Positions 18,717-25,652 of a DNA stretch of 64,000 bases are shown piece after piece; position 1 is the stretch's first letter, and the number at the start of each line of letters is the position of its first letter. The stretch spans positions 12,868 through 76,867 of the forward strand of contig CAJOCN010000004.1 of NCBI GenBank assembly GCA_905233255.1, read 5' to 3'. The notes beneath the pieces were generated by a model, which saw only the letters and a program-made list of their open reading frames with translations, ran no database searches and was not told the DNA's origin. Both the position numbers and the translations under genes were made by a program. Source of the stretch: Paludibacteraceae bacterium. GTDB taxonomy: Bacteria; Bacteroidota; Bacteroidia; Bacteroidales; Paludibacteraceae.

Positions 18717-18800
18717 CCAGGTCTGACCTCACCGACAGCGTAAAAAAGCGGTGAATAATTTTATATACAGAGTTTCGGGAACGAGGCTCTGTTTTTTTGT
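18717..18800 (+). repeat. Copy 1 of an 84/85-nt direct repeat (contains an AGGTCTGACCT palindrome, a TCACCG/CGGTGA stem and a terminator)
   Basis: Matches 19489-19573 with two substitutions and a one-T length difference (hand alignment). Confidence 0.9.
18768..18798 (+). terminator. Intrinsic terminator inside repeat copy 1
   Basis: CAGAGTTTCG-GGAA-CGAGGCTCTG (10-bp stem including two G-U pairs, GGAA loop) followed by T7. Confidence 0.7.
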
Positions 18801-18863
18801 GCCTGCTTTTCAGCCCGTAGATGCATCAAAATTTGTAAAAATCAAAAATACTTTCCTATATAC

Positions 18864-18894
18864 TTGCGTATTTCAAAAATTATTTGTAATTTTG
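18864..18894 (+). promoter_or_regulatory. Bacteroidetes-type promoter for the DUF4160/DUF2442 pair
   Basis: cTTG at 18864-18866, then a 20-nt A-rich spacer, then TAatTTTG at 18887-18894. ATG follows at 18923. Confidence 0.6.
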
Positions 18895-18922
18895 CAGCGC
18901 AAAATCATTAAACACGGAATGT

Positions 18923-19488: not shown

Positions 19489-19573
19489 CCAGGTCTGACC
19501 TCACCGACAGCGTAAAAAAGCGGTGAAAAATTTTATATAAAGAGTTTCGGGAACGAGGCTCTGTTTTTTTTGT
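19489..19573 (+). repeat. Copy 2 of the 84/85-nt direct repeat
   Basis: See 18717-18800. Starts 6 nt after the DUF2442 stop. Confidence 0.9.
19540..19571 (+). terminator. Intrinsic terminator inside repeat copy 2
   Basis: Same stem-loop as copy 1, followed by T8. Confidence 0.7.
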
Positions 19574-19625
19574 TTCGATAAAAATGCAGATTTTTTTTGT
19601 GGATGTCTAAAAATCTTTGATTATA

Positions 19626-19657
19626 TTTGCATATTTGAAAAAAAATCTATAATTTTG
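19626..19657 (+). promoter_or_regulatory. Bacteroidetes-type promoter upstream of the WYL gene
   Basis: TTTG at 19626-19629, 20-nt A-rich spacer, TAatTTTG at 19650-19657. Confidence 0.6.
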
Positions 19658-19667
19658 CACACTCATT

Positions 19668-19702
19668 CACTTTGTGGGAGTTTGAAGCAGTAATTTTGCA
19701 GC
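19668..19702 (+). promoter_or_regulatory. Copy 1 of a 35-nt island-specific promoter/operator element (CACTTTGTGGGAGTTTGAAGCAGTAATTTTGCAGC)
   Basis: 32/35 identical to 22499-22533. Contains TTTG and TAatTTTG boxes with a 16-nt spacer. Lies 18 nt before the WYL ATG. Confidence 0.65.
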
Positions 19703-19719
19703 CGAAAAATTTAACGCAC

Positions 19720-20661
19720 ATGGAAACGAAGAAAAAACTGAAATCATCAACTGCTTATCTTTTCAACTGCTATATTTGGCTGTTGAACACTATCGCACGC
19801 GGTCCTATTTCACGCGCAGCGATAGACGAGAAATGGGCGCACGCTTCTGCTAATTCATATAAGCAGGATTGTATCCCTGAGAGTAATTTCCATCGTTGGA
19901 AAGACACTATAAAAGAGCTTTTCGGCATCAAAATCAAATGTAACGGGAATAACGAGTACTACATTGAGGAAGCTACCGACTTGCGCGGTGGGGATCTGCG
20001 TATGCGTGCTCTAAACCTTATGTCCGCAAACAATCTACTCAAGGACAGCGAAGAACTATCCGACAGGATTTTGTTTGAGCCTGTTCCTTCCGGAGAAAAG
20101 TTCTTGACTCCTATCATTGAAGCTATGCGTGATATGACCGCCATCAACATGACGTATCAAGGTTTTACGCGTCAAAAACCGGCTACTTTCATCGTTGAAC
20201 CATATTGTCTCAAGGTGTTCAGGCAACGCTGGTATATGCTTGCGTACTCTCCCGGTCTTGATAAGGCGATGATTTACTCTCTCGATCGTGTTCACGCAGT
20301 TGAACCGACCAAGCAGAAATATAAGTTGCCAAAGGGCTTCAATGCAGAAGAGTACTTTAAGAATACGTACGGAGTTACCGGCATGGATGAAGAGCCGGAG
20401 GATATCGAGATATGTATCGATGCTATGCAGGCAAATTACTTACGTACACTGCCTCTCCATTCCTCACAAGAGGAGATGGAACGCAATGATGATTATTCCA
20501 TATTCCGCTTTCATATGGTTCCTTCCTACGAGTTCTTGCAGGAACTTCGCAAGTATGGATCTGACGTGGAAGTGATTTCTCCGGAATCGGTTCGTGCTGA
20601 ATTTAGAGCAGACACTGAAAGTCTATATCGTATTTATAAACAAATGGAATCCTGGGTATGA
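19720..20661 (+). CDS. WYL-domain transcriptional regulator (N-terminal HTH, central WYL, C-terminal extension)
   Basis: FRQRWYMLAYSPG is a typical WYL-domain core. The N-terminal YLFNCYIWLLNTIARGPISRAAI is HTH-like. ATG at 19720 chosen (METKKKL), and it sits downstream of two promoter-like elements. Confidence 0.8.
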   Translation: METKKKLKSSTAYLFNCYIWLLNTIARGPISRAAIDEKWAHASANSYKQDCIPESNFHRWKDTIKELFGIKIKCNGNNEYYIEEATDLRGGDLRMRALNLMSANNLLKDSEELSDRILFEPVPSGEKFLTPIIEAMRDMTAINMTYQGFTRQKPATFIVEPYCLKVFRQRWYMLAYSPGLDKAMIYSLDRVHAVEPTKQKYKLPKGFNAEEYFKNTYGVTGMDEEPEDIEICIDAMQANYLRTLPLHSSQEEMERNDDYSIFRFHMVPSYEFLQELRKYGSDVEVISPESVRAEFRADTESLYRIYKQMESWV

Positions 20662-21179
20662 AAGATTTTGTAGCTATAGACTTTGAGACCGCTAATGGTA
20701 AGCGCTCCAGTATCTGCTCTGTTGGCGCAGTGATTGTGAAGAACGGAGAAATCGTTGATTCCTTCTATTCCCTGGTGAAGCCCACTCCCAACTACTATGC
20801 ATGGTTCTGCCAAGAGGTGCACGGTTTGGACTACTGCGACACAGATGACGCTGACTTCTTCCCGGAAGTGTGGTCGCGGTTGCAGGAAAAGGTGCATGCT
20901 TATTTCCCGTTCATCGAAGATGGAGAAGTGCCCTTTGTTGCACATAACGCACGCTTTGATGAAGGATGCTTGCGTGCTGCCTTTGCTACCTTTGAGTTGG
21001 CTTTGCCGAACTATGAGTTCATGGACACCCTTGCAGCATCGCGCAATTATTTTGGCTCCGCGCTCCTGAACCACCAACTGCACACGGTCGCAGCTGCTTG
21101 TGGCTACGATCTGCAGAACCACCACCATGCTCTCGCCGACGCTGAAGCCTGCGCATGGATAGCGAGAGAAATTGTTTAA
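20658..21179 (+). CDS. DEDDh 3'-5' exonuclease (DnaQ/epsilon-like)
   Basis: ExoI AIDFETAN, ExoII VAHNARFDEGCL, ExoIII HHALADAEACAW (H-x4-D). ATGA start/stop overlap with the WYL gene. Confidence 0.85.
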   Translation: MKDFVAIDFETANGKRSSICSVGAVIVKNGEIVDSFYSLVKPTPNYYAWFCQEVHGLDYCDTDDADFFPEVWSRLQEKVHAYFPFIEDGEVPFVAHNARFDEGCLRAAFATFELALPNYEFMDTLAASRNYFGSALLNHQLHTVAAACGYDLQNHHHALADAEACAWIAREIV

Positions 21180-21261
21180 TTAATCTATAAATTTACCATT
21201 ATGAAAACAGATGAAGAGTTATTGCTAAATGTTATTAATCACATGAATAGCCTCGCTATGT

Positions 21262-21723
21262 TTGCTCCGCGCACAAATAGAAAAGCTAAGTGATTCTCAA
21301 ATTGCAAAATACGAGGAAGGTGTAGTTTGGCTTTTGACCCAATTGGCCCATCAGACAGAAAATGCCAGCCTGCAAGGAGAGTTCGAGAGCAACGATATGG
21401 TTGCAATAAAAATTTTCCAGTATATATTCGACAGATCAATAGAGGCATTGTACTATGTTATAAAAGGCGAAGACCCAAGCAACATAGTCTTCGATCTAAA
21501 TGAAGTAGGAGACTATTACGAATTATCAATACCCATAGATCTTCAGATGACCATCAACAACGTCGTTCCGCGTATTGTTGGGATTGCCTCAAATCTATAC
21601 CAATTCATGGAAGAGGAAGGGTATATGAAATTACCTCTTGCCAAATGGATGTATTTTTACATGTATGCCTCATCTTTCCTTGCCATGAATTTCCTTTTAG
21701 AACAAGATTTAACAGATAAATAA
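21262..21723 (+). CDS. Hypothetical protein (possibly frameshifted; may originally have started at 21201)
   Basis: The listed ORF begins at a TTG. An ATG ORF starting at 21201 runs into it one frame off at a TTT run. No family recognised. Confidence 0.5.
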   Translation: MLRAQIEKLSDSQIAKYEEGVVWLLTQLAHQTENASLQGEFESNDMVAIKIFQYIFDRSIEALYYVIKGEDPSNIVFDLNEVGDYYELSIPIDLQMTINNVVPRIVGIASNLYQFMEEEGYMKLPLAKWMYFYMYASSFLAMNFLLEQDLTDK

Positions 21724-21750
21724 TTTGTTTAACCTTTAAATTTTAGAATT

Positions 21751-22479
21751 ATGACCGTTGAAGAATTAACTCAAAAACAAGAGAAGTTGCATCAAAAAAT
21801 CAATGCAATAGCAGAAAAATTAAACAATGGACTTGAACCCATTTATGATGGTGTTGGTAATATTCCTATTTACCTCAATTCGCCACTGAAAATAATGTGG
21901 CTGCTCAAAGAATCGTATGACCAAGACAAACAGGGCAATAAAGGTAATGGCAATTGGAGCATATATGATGCCGTTCAAAATGACACTGCATGGTCATATT
22001 TGTCATTTCAAAGAATGGCATATGTGCTCTATGGATATAATAATGGTGTTTATTGCGAGGATAAAGATATGCCGAAGATTAGAAATCGCAAAGAAATGGT
22101 TAAAGATCTTGCAAATCTTGCCTATATTAACATTAATAAACTACCAGGAGGAACCTCATCTGATGATTCTCATATCGCAAGATGTTACAATATATGGAAA
22201 GATATCATTAACGAGCAAATTGAAGTATATAATCCAAATGTTATAATTTTGGGAGGAACAGAGAAATTCTTGGATTTTAAAAACGAATTCATTCAATGTA
22301 AGCATTATGAAAACAAGGATGTAAATCCAAAAATAGAATCAAAGATTTACAAATGGGGCAATCGTTGGGTGATTTCCGTATACCACCCAGGATACATGAT
22401 GAGCACAGAGGTTTATGTGGACATAATAATAGATAGTCTTAAATATGTAGATGAACAAATAAAATCGCACAGAAAATAA
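21751..22479 (+). CDS. Hypothetical protein; weak by-eye resemblance to the uracil-DNA-glycosylase fold
   Basis: 242 aa. The order of short motifs (IMWLLKESY ... ININKLPGG ... VIILGGTEKF ... VYHPGYMM) loosely parallels the UDG-superfamily layout. This is not a confident assignment. Confidence 0.5.
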   Translation: MTVEELTQKQEKLHQKINAIAEKLNNGLEPIYDGVGNIPIYLNSPLKIMWLLKESYDQDKQGNKGNGNWSIYDAVQNDTAWSYLSFQRMAYVLYGYNNGVYCEDKDMPKIRNRKEMVKDLANLAYININKLPGGTSSDDSHIARCYNIWKDIINEQIEVYNPNVIILGGTEKFLDFKNEFIQCKHYENKDVNPKIESKIYKWGNRWVISVYHPGYMMSTEVYVDIIIDSLKYVDEQIKSHRK

Positions 22480-22498
22480 CGGTTTTTACAATCTCCTC

Positions 22499-22533
22499 CA
22501 CTTTGTAGGAGAATGAAGCAGTAATTTTGCAGC
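22499..22533 (+). promoter_or_regulatory. Copy 2 of the 35-nt island-specific promoter/operator element (CACTTTGTAGGAGAATGAAGCAGTAATTTTGCAGC)
   Basis: See 19668-19702. TAatTTTG at 22522-22529. Precedes the metallopeptidase gene at 22577. Confidence 0.65.
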
Positions 22534-22576
22534 GTGATTCGAAAGAGTCGCGCTGTAATTTTAATGTTTTAATGAT

Positions 22577-23362
22577 ATGACGCCCCCTTATTTATCAAAT
22601 TTTGAACAAATCCATCATGAGGCTATAAGACTAGCCGGTTATAAAATGAATGAGATCCGTAATATGGATGAAGAATATATTATAAATGCTTGTTGTGCTT
22701 GCGTTGCTGTTGCATATACTAAGATTCAGAAATATGGTGAAAAGTATTTTGGCGGTTTCTCAAGCAAAATAAATCTTTTTTATCACAAACTATGTCAGGG
22801 ACGTTATTATTTTGAGTCTGGAAATATCAGTATTAATCCGGATGTTATCTTCTCCAAGGAAGAATGCTTTAATGAAGTTCTTTTGCATGAGTTAACGCAT
22901 TCGATATATTATGACCATAGTATTGAATTTTGGCAACACTTGCAGCATCTTTTATATTTGGAAGGTCTCATAAAGGAAAAGAAAGACTTTCGCATAAGTG
23001 AGCAGTCTGGCTCTTACGCAGTATATTATGGGGATAGAAAAATAAATAACGGTAAAAAAATTATGATGCGTTTTATAGAAACTGGGGGTGGTTGTTGGTC
23101 TGACAATATCGAATGTTTGTTCCGTAGAGTCTTTTATTATCAAGATATATTGCGATATCGTAAAACTGGAACTTCTTCTTACCTTATAGATGACAATAGT
23201 AATTTCATTGTGATGGAGCCTATATGGAGAAAATATGCTTTAAGGTACAATATTGAGCCGATATTTCTCTTACAGATGAGTTGTATGGATGAGGATAGGA
23301 TGAGAAAAAATGCAGTCAATGTTAATAACTATGAAACATTCAAGCCAATACAGCAGTTATGA
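22577..23362 (+). CDS. DUF45/YgjP-like HExxH metallopeptidase-fold protein with a C-terminal extension
   Basis: LLHELTHSIYYDHSIEFWQHL matches the DUF45 signature (HELxHxxxxxHSxxFW). Confidence 0.7.
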   Translation: MTPPYLSNFEQIHHEAIRLAGYKMNEIRNMDEEYIINACCACVAVAYTKIQKYGEKYFGGFSSKINLFYHKLCQGRYYFESGNISINPDVIFSKEECFNEVLLHELTHSIYYDHSIEFWQHLQHLLYLEGLIKEKKDFRISEQSGSYAVYYGDRKINNGKKIMMRFIETGGGCWSDNIECLFRRVFYYQDILRYRKTGTSSYLIDDNSNFIVMEPIWRKYALRYNIEPIFLLQMSCMDEDRMRKNAVNVNNYETFKPIQQL

Positions 23363-23651
23363 TAAATCAGAGTGGAGTCATAGCCATGACTTCCCTATCG
23401 AGGAGATCTGGAATACAGAAACCACGATGGCTGCTTTTATCGCTCCTCGATTAAGAGCATTTAAGAGTTTAAAGAAGCATGGCTTCCCTTCGGAGATGGG
23501 TAGCGAGCGACAGTGGAATAGCACTATCCAAAAGATGATAGATGCCTTTGAAATATTAAGTCGCCCCTATACTCCAACAGACGAAGAGAATCCAATCGTA
23601 GAGGAAGGTCTTGACCTCTTCCGCAAATACTATCGTAATCTTTGGGACTAA
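23331..23651 (+). CDS. Hypothetical protein
   Basis: Same-strand ORF that overlaps the upstream gene end. The start is uncertain (ATG at 23310, 23319 or 23331). No family recognised. Confidence 0.45.
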   Translation: MKHSSQYSSYDKSEWSHSHDFPIEEIWNTETTMAAFIAPRLRAFKSLKKHGFPSEMGSERQWNSTIQKMIDAFEILSRPYTPTDEENPIVEEGLDLFRKYYRNLWD

Positions 23652-23669
23652 TGTAAATTTTTAACAGTT

Positions 23670-23924
23670 ATGGATACTCGATCTATCAATGACCAACTCG
23701 AACTGTTGCGTCTCAAAGAACTCTTTATGTCTGATATTGACATCCGTAGCAAAATGGCTATGCTTATCTGCGAAGAAGACTCATCCTACAGCGAGTTCTG
23801 TCAACTCACACATTGCACACCGGACATAGCGAAAATGTTTGCAGAACAATTGTTAATAGATGTTTTTCTTACTCCAGAAGAAATTGCCTCCGAGCGCGAA
23901 AGATTAGAAAGGATGAAACTATAA
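23670..23924 (+). CDS. Hypothetical protein (84 aa)
   Basis: Tightly spaced same-strand ORF in the island operon. No family recognised. Confidence 0.5.
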   Translation: MDTRSINDQLELLRLKELFMSDIDIRSKMAMLICEEDSSYSEFCQLTHCTPDIAKMFAEQLLIDVFLTPEEIASERERLERMKL

Positions 23925-23936
23925 TTCTATTTTACT

Positions 23937-24575
23937 ATGATACAATATGACGAACAGACCCTTCAACTTATTGAAGAAGAAATTACCTACATTTATCAAT
24001 CCGATGTAACAGGCTATCCGCAAAGTGAATTTTTGCTTGACTTACGGAAAAGTATCTTGAACGAGCAAGCATGTACGCGTAAAGCTCAAGAAGAACTTCT
24101 TCCTGACATAATAGCCTTTAATGACGCCTTGCATGACGCGCTTAAACATATGTTTGACCGCGCGCATGAACTTTATCGTCAGATGTCAGCTATTCAACCA
24201 GACATTATGTTAACCGCCAAATGTTATCTTGCATATGACTATCCTGCCTTGCACCCCTACCAAAAAGAAGACAGACAAGATTTGTTTGATGCAATATGTG
24301 ATTTCGGTTGGAACCAACTTTATGCAGATGGGGTTACTTTTGCGTTGGAATTACCGCGTGATATAGACATGCCTTTCGACACCATCAGAGGTATGGACTG
24401 CACGCCGTTTAACTGGAATGAAGGTCTTGACCCAGAACTTACGAAAGATCTCCATATCAATCGTGCCTTCCACAATCTCTTTGACCATACAAAATTTGCT
24501 CTCACAGATTTTATCTTTTGTCGAGATTTTGTCTTTGAGTATAGCACTATTAGCGAGGAAAAACTACTAATCTAA
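23937..24575 (+). CDS. Hypothetical protein (212 aa)
   Basis: Tightly spaced same-strand ORF. No family recognised. Confidence 0.6.
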   Translation: MIQYDEQTLQLIEEEITYIYQSDVTGYPQSEFLLDLRKSILNEQACTRKAQEELLPDIIAFNDALHDALKHMFDRAHELYRQMSAIQPDIMLTAKCYLAYDYPALHPYQKEDRQDLFDAICDFGWNQLYADGVTFALELPRDIDMPFDTIRGMDCTPFNWNEGLDPELTKDLHINRAFHNLFDHTKFALTDFIFCRDFVFEYSTISEEKLLI

Positions 24576-24995: not shown

Positions 24996-25083
24996 ACAAA
25001 ACGGGCGGCTTAAAGAATGAGTCGCCCGTGTGTTGTGTCCAGATAATCATAGATGTATTGCTTAAGCATCTTATAAGTGCTGA

Positions 25084-25182: not shown

Positions 25183-25320
25183 CAGTGCAAAATCAAATAT
25201 AAATTTAAACTATTACAACTATGAAAAAATCCATTCTTTTCCTGCTGGCGGAAGACGGCTGGTTCAAATGGTCATCAATCAGCAGACCTTATGCTGACGT
25301 TGAGCCGAGGTTAGGGAGAA

Positions 25321-25399
25321 GTGAAAAATGAAAGATGAAAGATGAAAGATGAAAGATGAAAGATGAAAGATGAAAAATGAAAGATGAAAGATGAAAGAT
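25321..25399. repeat. Heptamer array, GAAAGAT/GAAAAAT x about 11
   Basis: Read directly: gaaaaat, gaaagat x5, gaaaaat, gaaagat x3, gaaaaat (hand count). Confidence 0.95.
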
Positions 25400-25652
25400 G
25401 AAAAATATTTGCATATTTCAAAAAAAAGTTGTACCTTCGGTCCTCCCTATTTATAAAATATAAACAGGGTCCCACCGAAAATACGTTCGCATATTGCCGG
25501 ACATATACTAAGCACCGCGGACATTTTTTGAGAACCGCTAAAACGGTTTCCTGTTTTGCCCATACAAATACCATCTTATGCAAGCATAGCTATTATTTGT
25601 CTGTGCTAAACAGATAAAATTTCATTTTATTTTTCAAAAAAATATCCGAACG

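What the first reader, a model, noticed from the sequence alone, without database searches (positions are those of the whole stretch)
19668..22533. A 35-nt promoter/operator element is duplicated in front of the WYL gene and the metallopeptidase gene
CACTTTGT(G/A)GGAG(TT/AA)TGAAGCAGTAATTTTGCAGC occurs at 19668-19702 and again at 22499-22533, with 32/35 identical by hand alignment. Each copy carries a TTTG and a TAatTTTG box with an unusually short 16-nt spacer, where the typical promoters in this window have about 20 nt. Each copy lies 18-44 nt upstream of an ATG. Conservation well beyond the two core boxes suggests a shared operator. That would make the two halves of the island one regulon, most simply under control of the WYL protein, with autoregulation at copy 1. 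The short spacer is consistent with a promoter that needs an activator or is poised for de-repression.
Basis: seen in the sequence. Interest (0 to 1): 0.6.

Follow-up and report, generated by a model that had tools for sequence, protein, structure and literature searches.

The report
WYL-regulator operator-promoter, repeated within island
The duplicated 35-mer is real and is a special promoter: a 17-bp palindromic box, most likely the binding site of the island's own WYL regulator, replaces the usual upstream promoter element in front of both the regulator gene and a downstream cargo operon, an arrangement that recurs in related rumen and gut Bacteroidales.

Summary
In detail: 32/35 identity at the stated coordinates, 0 of 100 shuffles matching. 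The 35-mer has two parts.

- **3' 19 nt:** this is the genome's generic extended -7 promoter consensus.
- **5' part:** this is specific. It is an imperfect palindrome, C-T-Y-Y-C / N7 / G-R-R-A-G (window 19664-19680 and 22495-22511). It ends exactly 10 nt before the -7 box and sits where the canonical TTG (20-nt spacer) would be. That TTG is present at 111 of 125 strong -7 boxes in this genome.

The genome has four copies, in two paralogous islands. Each island has one copy before a WYL gene and one before unrelated cargo.

In 29 Paludibacteraceae loci the element always accompanies the WYL gene: 63 copies in all (57 distinct), constant spacing, variable linker sequence. Cargo copies also carry a terminator-like hairpin that starts inside the -7 box.

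More distant WYL homologues carry different 5-7-5 palindromes in the same register.

The WYL protein's fold is closest to the activators DriD and PafBC, whose promoters also lack a -35 element and carry the factor's site there.

Best reading: a WYL operator with a factor-dependent promoter forming a local regulon. Activation versus repression is unresolved. No transcription data could be obtained. It is a new member of a known kind.

The parts
19626..19657 (+). P1: canonical promoter upstream of copy 1. TTTG at 19626-19629, 20-nt spacer, TAATTTTG at 19650-19657. Its predicted start lies at the left edge of the box.
   Evidence: Sequence. The 20-nt spacer is the genome norm. A -7 box at this position is present in 22/27 distinct WYL-proximal elements and 0/30 cargo elements.
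19664..19680 (+). Box A: 17-bp imperfect palindrome CATTC-ACTTTGT-GGGAG (geometry CTYYC-N7-GRRAG, centre T at 19672). Putative WYL operator.
   Evidence: Among 57 distinct elements, C(-4) is invariant (57/57) and C1, A2, T4-T6, G7, T8, G9, A12 and G13 are near-invariant (48-57/57). Sense and antisense fold energies are equal. Weak as an RNA hairpin, z -0.7.
19691..19698 (+). P2(A): -7 box TAATTTTG, 10 nt after the box, within the generic extended consensus 19684-19702.
   Evidence: Invariant in all copies. The generic consensus is seen at dozens of promoters. There is no TTG at the canonical 20-nt spacer.
19720..20661 (+). WYL transcription factor gene (313 aa; wHTH, WYL and WCX domains).
   Evidence: Pfam WYL 2e-12 and WCX 2.1e-10. 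AF2 model pLDDT 72.7. Foldseek top hits are DriD at E 3.5e-12 and PafBC at 5e-10; CapW and BrxR score 1e-7 to 1e-5.
20658..22479 (+). Rest of the WYL operon: DEDDh exonuclease (20658-21179), an apparently frameshifted family-F7 gene (21201-21723), and a 242-aa protein of unknown family (21751-22479).
   Evidence: Pfam RNase_T / Rv2179c-like. PADLOC DEDDh. Gene-family clustering.
22495..22511 (+). Box B: 17-bp palindrome CCTCC-ACTTTGT-AGGAG. An alternative 6-bp pairing is TCTCCT 22492-22497 with AGGAGA 22507-22512. It starts 16 nt after the upstream stop codon.
22522..22529 (+). P2(B): -7 box TAATTTTG. No other promoter-like box lies upstream.
22527..22568 (+). 14-bp hairpin (TTGCAGCGTGATTC-GAAA-GAGTCGCGCTGTAA) followed by a T-rich tail. 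It is terminator-like and begins inside the -7 box, so it spans the predicted start site.
   Evidence: Flagged by the terminator scan. dG -21.9 kcal/mol, z -6.0. Present in all 16 distinct cargo elements folded, dG -14.6 to -22.4. The hairpin's conserved first bases follow the -7 box in all 30 distinct cargo-type elements.
22577..24575 (+). Cargo operon: SprT/YgjP-like metallopeptidase (22577-23362) and three small proteins of unknown family (23310-23651, 23670-23924, 23937-24575).
   Evidence: Pfam. Gene-family clustering across loci. No PADLOC hit.

Best explanation
The specific part of the 35-mer is the operator of the island's own WYL transcription factor. The proposed mechanism has four steps.

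1. A dimer of the wHTH-WYL-WCX protein binds the 17-bp palindrome CTYYC-N7-GRRAG. This palindrome occupies the place of the -33 element and ends exactly 10 nt before a consensus -7 box.
2. RNA polymerase alone uses these promoters poorly because they lack the TTG at the canonical 20-nt spacer. The ligand-activated WYL protein helps it, as DriD and PafBC do at promoters without a -35 element. By analogy, the ligand would be ssDNA or another nucleic-acid signal.
3. At the WYL gene the same box lies at about +3 to +19 of a canonical constitutive promoter, P1. The bound factor would therefore also damp basal expression. This gives negative autoregulation at P1 and positive autoregulation at P2.
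4. At the cargo operon the promoter is embedded in a terminator-like hairpin. The hairpin stops read-through from the WYL operon, while transcripts starting inside its 5' arm lack the full stem. Cargo expression would then depend on the box promoter alone.

**Shown:** the sequence architecture, its conservation, its exclusive linkage to WYL genes, and the fold class of the protein.

**Inferred:** binding, the ligand, the direction of control, the start sites, and the insulating role of the hairpin.
For: **Specificity**
- There are four full-length copies in the genome, all in two WYL islands. The next-best hits match only the generic -7 box.

**Linkage**
- 63 full-length copies (57 distinct sequences) occur in 29 related loci and the two own-genome islands, all co-oriented with a WYL gene.
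- WYL is the only gene family always present.
- The element is present in 3/81 family genomes, always beside a close WYL orthologue, and in none of about 396 other Bacteroidales genomes.

**Constraint**
- The box and the -7 box are invariant and the linker length is constant, while the linker sequence varies.

**Palindrome is DNA-level**
- Sense and antisense fold energies are equal: 29 vs 27 elements, p 0.34.

**Missing -33**
- 111/125 strong -7 boxes have TTG at exactly 20 nt. These elements are among the 14 exceptions.

**Family-wide rule**
- Distant WYL homologues (30-48% identity) carry other 5-7-5 palindromes (CTGCC-N7-GGCAG and similar) in the identical register, next to the WYL gene. 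This holds for 19/253 boxes in their loci against 16/1740 in the whole genome. For the 17 boxes co-oriented with the WYL gene, tested against half of the 253 boxes, Fisher p is 2e-12.
- One such case in this genome precedes hsdM.

**Protein**
- Pfam WYL and WCX domains.
- Fold closest to DriD and PafBC.

**Literature**
- DriD promoters lack a -35 element. The DriD site overlaps that position at a fixed distance from the -10, and DriD also binds its own promoter (PMC13004042).
- The DriD site is CGXC(X)7GXCG with an AT-rich gap (PMC10853764).
Against: - No binding data and no transcription data.
- The left arm of the palindrome is degenerate. In many copies, including both window copies, it pairs better when shifted by 2 nt. 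That is awkward for a rigid dimer site.
- WYL regulators found in defence islands (BrxR, CapW) are repressors. BrxR also has one box before its own gene and one before cargo (PMC9122601). The same architecture therefore fits repression.
- Fold similarity to DriD rests on a model of moderate confidence (pLDDT 72.7) and does not decide the direction of control.
- Many of the 57 distinct elements are related by descent, so the counts overstate independent support.
Confidence: 0.5

Rival explanations
1. Same operator, opposite sign. The WYL protein is a BrxR/CapW-like repressor. By sitting on the -33 region of P2-type promoters, and on +3 to +19 of P1 at its own gene, it keeps the island silent until a phage-derived or damage-derived ligand releases it.
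For: - BrxR represses, and has R-BOX1 between its promoter and brxR and R-BOX2 before cargo. One half-site is better conserved than the other, as here (PMC9122601).
- The box lies downstream of a canonical promoter in 22/27 WYL-proximal elements.
- The island is patchily distributed with swappable cargo.
- A paralogous WYL-box promoter precedes a type I R-M methylase gene.
- CapW and BrxR are significant fold matches.
Against: - Cargo promoters have no canonical -33 element and no other promoter.
- The register relative to the -7 box is exact across clades that have different box sequences. That is more typical of a factor that must contact polymerase.
- Sequence and fold scores are orders of magnitude better for DriD and PafBC than for BrxR and CapW.
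- No cargo protein of this island matches a known defence family.
Confidence: 0.3
2. The inverted repeat acts as a nucleic-acid structure rather than a protein site. It could be an RNA hairpin at the 5' end of P1 transcripts or in read-through RNA, or an ssDNA hairpin. It would affect stability, processing or recombination of cargo modules.
For: - The arms co-vary: GGGAG/CTCC, GAAAG/CTTTC, GGAAG/CTTCC, CGAG/CTCG.
- G-T combinations outnumber C-A at two arm positions.
- Cargo modules differ on either side of conserved elements.
Against: - No strand asymmetry in fold energy.
- The hairpins are weak, z -0.7 to -2.3.
- The centre is more conserved than the arms.
- The fixed distance to the -7 box has no explanation under this reading.
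- Cargo copies are not preceded by a promoter that would start at the hairpin.
Confidence: 0.08
3. There is no dedicated regulator. The box is a hitch-hiking remnant of promoter duplication within a mobile island, and the promoters are simply constitutive variants with a displaced -33 TTTG.
For: - The 3' half is generic.
- Elements in different loci are related by descent.
- A TTTG does lie in the box.
Against: - Box positions stay invariant while the linker, the flanks and the downstream genes diverge.
- Distant clades keep the geometry with different sequences.
- The TTTG is replaced by GAT in L040 without any change of spacing.
Confidence: 0.07

Closest known systems
DriD (Caulobacter) and PafBC (Actinobacteria) activator-dependent promoters
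   Same: - The factor has the same wHTH-WYL-WCX architecture and is the best sequence and fold match.
- The promoter has a good -10 equivalent and no -35 equivalent.
- The factor site sits at the -35 position at a fixed distance.
- There is a site in the factor's own promoter.
- The half-sites are separated by 7 bp with an A/T-rich centre.
   Different: - The host is Bacteroidota, with a -7/-33 promoter type and a different housekeeping sigma factor.
- The box sequence is unrelated.
- The regulon is local to a small variable island, not a genome-wide damage regulon.
- A canonical promoter stands in tandem upstream at the regulator gene.
- The cargo promoter is fused to a terminator-like hairpin.
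- Activation is not demonstrated.
BrxR (BREX and defence-island WYL repressor) with R-BOX1 and R-BOX2
   Same: - One box lies between a promoter and the regulator gene, and a second lies before the cargo.
- The inverted repeats are imperfect, with one half-site better conserved.
- It sits in a patchy island with variable content.
   Different: - BrxR boxes are 11-5-11 repeats downstream of the -10.
- Here the box is 5-7-5 and replaces the -33 of the promoter it precedes.
- The fold match is weaker.
- The cargo of this island matches no known defence family.
CapW (CBASS-associated WYL repressor)
   Same: It is a WYL factor that binds a palindrome overlapping a promoter of an adjacent defence operon. 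It is a significant fold match.
   Different: The gene arrangement is divergent, repression is established, and there is no relation to the box sequence. I did not test this further.

Membership tests
WYL-domain transcription factors (wHTH-WYL-WCX) | WYL domain | tested here: met
   PF13280, E 2e-12, residues 128-195.
WYL-domain transcription factors (wHTH-WYL-WCX) | C-terminal WCX dimerisation domain | tested here: met
   PF25583, E 2.1e-10, residues 226-301.
WYL-domain transcription factors (wHTH-WYL-WCX) | N-terminal winged helix-turn-helix | tested here: met
   There is no Pfam hit. The AF2 model has three helices plus a beta-hairpin at residues 10-83 with pLDDT 73-93. Full-length Foldseek alignments to DriD give E 3.5e-12.
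WYL-domain transcription factors (wHTH-WYL-WCX) | Dimer binds a palindromic DNA site | not testable with these tools
   A conserved imperfect palindrome is present next to every orthologue. Binding needs EMSA or footprinting.
DriD/PafBC-type activator-dependent promoter | Recognisable -10 equivalent but no -35 equivalent | tested here: met
   The extended -7 consensus is perfect. There is no TTG at the 20-nt spacer, unlike 111/125 strong boxes.
DriD/PafBC-type activator-dependent promoter | Factor site overlaps the -35 position at a fixed distance from the -10 | tested here: met
   The box ends 10 nt before the TA in all 57 distinct elements, and in 19 boxes of distant clades.
DriD/PafBC-type activator-dependent promoter | Transcription requires the ligand-bound factor | not testable with these tools
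BrxR/CapW-type repressor-operator | Operator within or downstream of an autonomous promoter | tested here: inconclusive
   This is true relative to P1 at the WYL gene (22/27). It is not true at cargo copies, where no autonomous canonical promoter exists.
BrxR/CapW-type repressor-operator | Controls a recognised defence system | tested here: not met
   PADLOC matches only the WYL and DEDDh proteins, and none of the cargo proteins of this island. A paralogous WYL in the genome does precede hsdM.

The most novel reading that the evidence does not exclude
Paludibacteraceae, and perhaps Bacteroidales more widely, may have a whole class of 'WYL-box promoters'. In these, a clade-specific 5-7-5 palindrome ends exactly 10 nt before the -7 box and substitutes for the -33 element. 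A WYL factor would then recruit the Bacteroidota housekeeping polymerase in a DriD/PafBC-like way. These promoters, fused to terminators, would act as insulated plug-in sockets for exchangeable cargo such as nucleases, a peptidase and R-M systems.
Probability: 0.35. Interest if true: 0.65.

Novelty: new member of a known kind. Interest (0 to 1): 0.5.

Why it matters
WYL regulators have been studied in Proteobacteria and Actinobacteria. I found no description of their operators or promoter logic in Bacteroidota, whose promoters and housekeeping sigma factor differ.

The comparative data give three things:
- a precise, testable operator: 17 bp with defined invariant positions;
- a positional rule: 10 nt to the -7 box;
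- natural variants in many genomes.

This makes binding, activation-versus-repression and ligand questions directly testable with short oligonucleotides and reporters. It also offers a way to predict the regulons of WYL factors in gut and rumen Bacteroidales, and to flag the uncharacterised cargo genes they switch on.

Tried and rejected
- **Generic promoter variant: rejected for the 5' half.** A fuzzy search and an nhmmer profile of the whole genome find only four full-length copies. It is accepted for the 3' half.
- **Strand-specific RNA hairpin around the box: rejected.** Sense and antisense energies are equal and z-scores are weak.
- **The TTTG in the box acting as a displaced -33 element: unlikely.** L040 keeps the spacing with GAT at the centre.
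- **Collection-wide exact-pattern scan:** it returned only 5 hits in unrelated taxa, about the number I estimated for chance matches, and did not list the known loci. It was uninformative.
- **Looking for the upstream sequence of each distant WYL homologue repeated downstream, using 16-mers:** little was found. The register-based palindrome test worked instead.
- **Literature search for WYL regulators in Bacteroides or Bacteroidetes:** nothing relevant to this element.
- **PADLOC, PHROGs and Pfam on cargo proteins:** most remain unassigned.
Full report
**Observation**

None of 100 shuffles of the window gave a second match. A repeat finder extends the similarity to 50 nt at 84%. The stated 16-nt TTTG-to-TA spacer is correct.

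The window belongs to a 2.27-Mb, 51% G+C genome of 74 contigs. Related loci come from Paludibacteraceae and uncultured Bacteroidales MAGs from rumen and gut.

**The 35-mer has two parts**

A fuzzy search of the whole genome shows that the 3' 19 nt (GAAGCAGTAATTTTGCAGC) is essentially the organism's generic extended -7 promoter consensus. Dozens of promoters read ...TTGCrTATgTCAAAAA-AAAGCAGTAnnTTTGCAGC.

Among 795 TAnnTTTGC boxes, 223 have TTTG at exactly 20 nt and 8 have it at 16 nt. Among 125 strong extended -7 boxes, 111 have TTG at exactly 20 nt. The elements studied here are among the 14 exceptions. So the 3' half is ordinary, and what is special is what replaces the -33 region.

**Copies in the genome**

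There are four copies, all in two paralogous islands.
- In the window, one copy precedes the WYL gene and one precedes the SprT-like peptidase gene.
- On contig C52, one copy precedes a WYL paralogue (79% nucleotide identity over the WYL-exonuclease pair). One precedes an unrelated 265-aa ORF.

An nhmmer profile of the element gives these four as the only full-length hits in the genome. The next hits, at 17.6 bits or less, match only the generic -7 box.

**Related loci**

A search with the WYL protein returned 29 loci at 61-90% identity. In them I found 63 full-length elements (57 distinct sequences), every one co-oriented with the WYL gene. They fall into two types.

- **Type A** sits directly before the WYL gene, or before the first gene of its operon in L025/L026. 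In 22 of 27 distinct copies it is preceded by a fully canonical promoter, P1. The -7 box of P1 ends about 6 nt before the box.
- **Type B** occurs once or twice per island, 1.9-3.6 kb downstream. It starts within about 20 nt of the stop codon of the preceding gene and lies before cargo genes that differ from island to island. It never has a P1.

Type B is always followed by a GC-rich hairpin (GCAGCGTGATTC-loop-GAGTCRCGCTG) and a T-rich tail. In the window this hairpin is flagged as terminator-like at 22527-22558 and folds at -21.9 kcal/mol, z -6.0.

WYL is the only gene family present in every island. The partner genes include:
- a DEDDh exonuclease;
- a PD-(D/E)XK nuclease;
- FtsK-like and DnaB_C-like proteins;
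- LRR proteins;
- DUF6140;
- several families with no match.

**Distribution**

Among 81 evenly drawn genomes of the family, the element occurs in three. Each time it lies beside a close WYL orthologue. More distant WYL homologues occur in 44 of the 81. Among about 396 other Bacteroidales genomes there is no genuine copy. The element is therefore island-specific and patchy.

**Anatomy of the specific part**

In the 57 distinct elements:
- C(-4) is invariant (57/57) and C1, A2, T4-T6, G7, T8, G9, A12 and G13 are near-invariant (48-57/57);
- the -7 box is near-invariant;
- the linker between them has constant length but variable sequence.

The conserved positions form an imperfect palindrome, CTYYC-AyTTTrT-GRRAG. 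In the window this is 19664-19680 and 22495-22511. It is centred about 31 nt upstream of the predicted start. The arms co-vary between copies: GGGAG/CTCC, GAAAG/CTTTC, GGAAG/CTTCC.

I tested whether this reflects an RNA hairpin.
- Fold energies of the sense and antisense strands do not differ (29 vs 27 elements, Wilcoxon p 0.34).
- The hairpins are weak (z -0.7 to -2.3).
- The centre is better conserved than the arms.

A double-stranded palindromic protein site fits better. One caveat: in many copies, including both in the window, the left arm matches better when shifted by 2 nt.

**A family-wide rule**

I fetched the loci of 20 more distant WYL homologues at 30-48% identity. Their upstream sequences differ. 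A register-based test asked for a 5-mer, N7, its reverse complement, then exactly 10 nt to the TA of a TAnnTTTG box. It finds 19 such boxes among 253 in these loci. Seventeen are co-oriented with the WYL gene and lie directly before or after it. Most read CTGCC/CTGAC-N7-GGCAG/GTCAG. The own genome gives 16 of 1740. A Fisher test on the 17 co-oriented boxes, taking half of the 253 boxes as the co-oriented total, gives p 2e-12.

The clade studied here has the same geometry. One homologue (L040, 42% identity) keeps CTCCC...GAGAG and the spacing but has GAT at the centre. The central TTTG is therefore probably not a -33 element.

Two of the own-genome hits read GTGCA-N7-TGCAC. One stands immediately after a third WYL+WCX gene on contig C8 and in front of an hsdM gene; the other lies 10 kb downstream.

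Box sequence therefore changes with the WYL clade while its position relative to the -7 box does not. This is the strongest computational evidence that the box is the WYL factor's site and that its position matters.

**The protein**

- Pfam finds WYL and WCX domains.
- The best PDB sequence match is PafBC, followed by DriD.
- An AlphaFold model (pLDDT 72.7) shows an N-terminal winged helix, a linker helix, the WYL barrel and WCX.
- All 32 significant Foldseek hits are WYL transcription factors. DriD is first (E 3.5e-12), then PafBC (about 5e-10), then CapW and BrxR (1e-7 to 1e-5).

**Comparison with what is known**

DriD-dependent promoters have a clear -10 and no recognisable -35. The DriD site overlaps the -35 position at a constant distance from the -10, and DriD also binds its own promoter (PMC13004042). 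Its site is CGXC(X)7GXCG with an A/T-rich gap that the protein barely contacts (PMC10853764). All of these features have counterparts here.

BrxR, by contrast, is a repressor. It has one imperfect inverted repeat between its promoter and brxR and a second before the cargo, with one half-site better conserved (PMC9122601). That also resembles the present layout, especially relative to P1.

**Most likely mechanism**

The WYL factor binds the box at both sites. In my preferred reading (about 0.5), it acts like DriD and PafBC:
- it enables the housekeeping polymerase to use promoters that lack a -33 element;
- its position at +3 to +19 of P1 damps basal expression of its own operon;
- the hairpin at the cargo promoter terminates read-through from the WYL operon, whereas transcripts that start within its 5' arm lack the full stem.

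The main rival (about 0.3) is the same operator used for repression. Structure-based readings (0.08) and no-regulator readings (0.07) are less likely.

Binding, start sites, ligand and sign are inferred, not shown.

**Verdict**

It needs three corrections:
- half of the 35-mer is generic;
- the operator is a palindrome, not a short-spaced -33 element;
- copy 1 has a tandem canonical promoter, and copy 2 is fused to a terminator-like hairpin.

It is a new member of a known kind: a WYL factor with cognate boxes. It has features specific to Bacteroidota promoters, and a positional rule that appears to hold across a family of WYL regulators.

Noticed in passing
own genome contig C8, minus strand, about 42383 and 52415 (outside the window): A third WYL+WCX protein (334 aa) is followed by GTGCA-atatctt-TGCAC, 10 nt, then TACTTTTG, in front of an hsdM gene (PF02384, PF12161) and ORFs that I judged HsdS- and HsdR-like only from their size and position. 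The same box recurs 10 kb downstream before a 192-aa lipoprotein-like ORF. This looks like a WYL-box promoter controlling a type I R-M system.
   Followed up: partly
L035-L054 (loci of distant WYL homologues): CTGCC/CTGAC-N7-GGCAG/GTCAG palindromes end exactly 10 nt before a -7 box, directly before or after the WYL gene, in most of the 20 loci. In L036 the cargo promoter is also followed by a hairpin that starts at GCAGCG.
   Followed up: partly
window 21201-21723: The gene after the exonuclease appears frameshifted. An ATG at 21201 opens a short frame that ends at 21293, and the 153-codon ORF starts in another frame at 21262. Homologues in other loci are 181-202 aa.
   Followed up: no
window 18717-18798 and 19489-19570: An 82-nt direct repeat (98% identical), each copy carrying a terminator, brackets the DUF4160 gene and its small partner gene. 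The promoter regions 18859-18896 and 19622-19659 are also similar. This suggests the two-gene module was inserted or duplicated together with an intergenic region.
   Followed up: no
L001-L029, cargo regions: The same few cargo families recur in different orders and combinations between conserved type-B elements (for example DUF6140, a 203-aa secreted protein, an ~88-aa plus ~212-aa pair, and LRR proteins). The nearly identical promoter-hairpin cassettes could serve as sites for homologous exchange of modules.
   Followed up: no
L008 2167-3133: A second WYL paralogue in the same locus is followed at once by a perfect 8-3-8 palindrome, ACTTCCAT-CTT-ATGGAAGT, then a -7 box and hairpin, before a DnaB_C-like gene.
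   Followed up: no
window 25001-25029 and 25308-25419: A strong terminator-like hairpin closes the cargo operon. It is followed by a GAAAGAT heptamer array.
   Followed up: no
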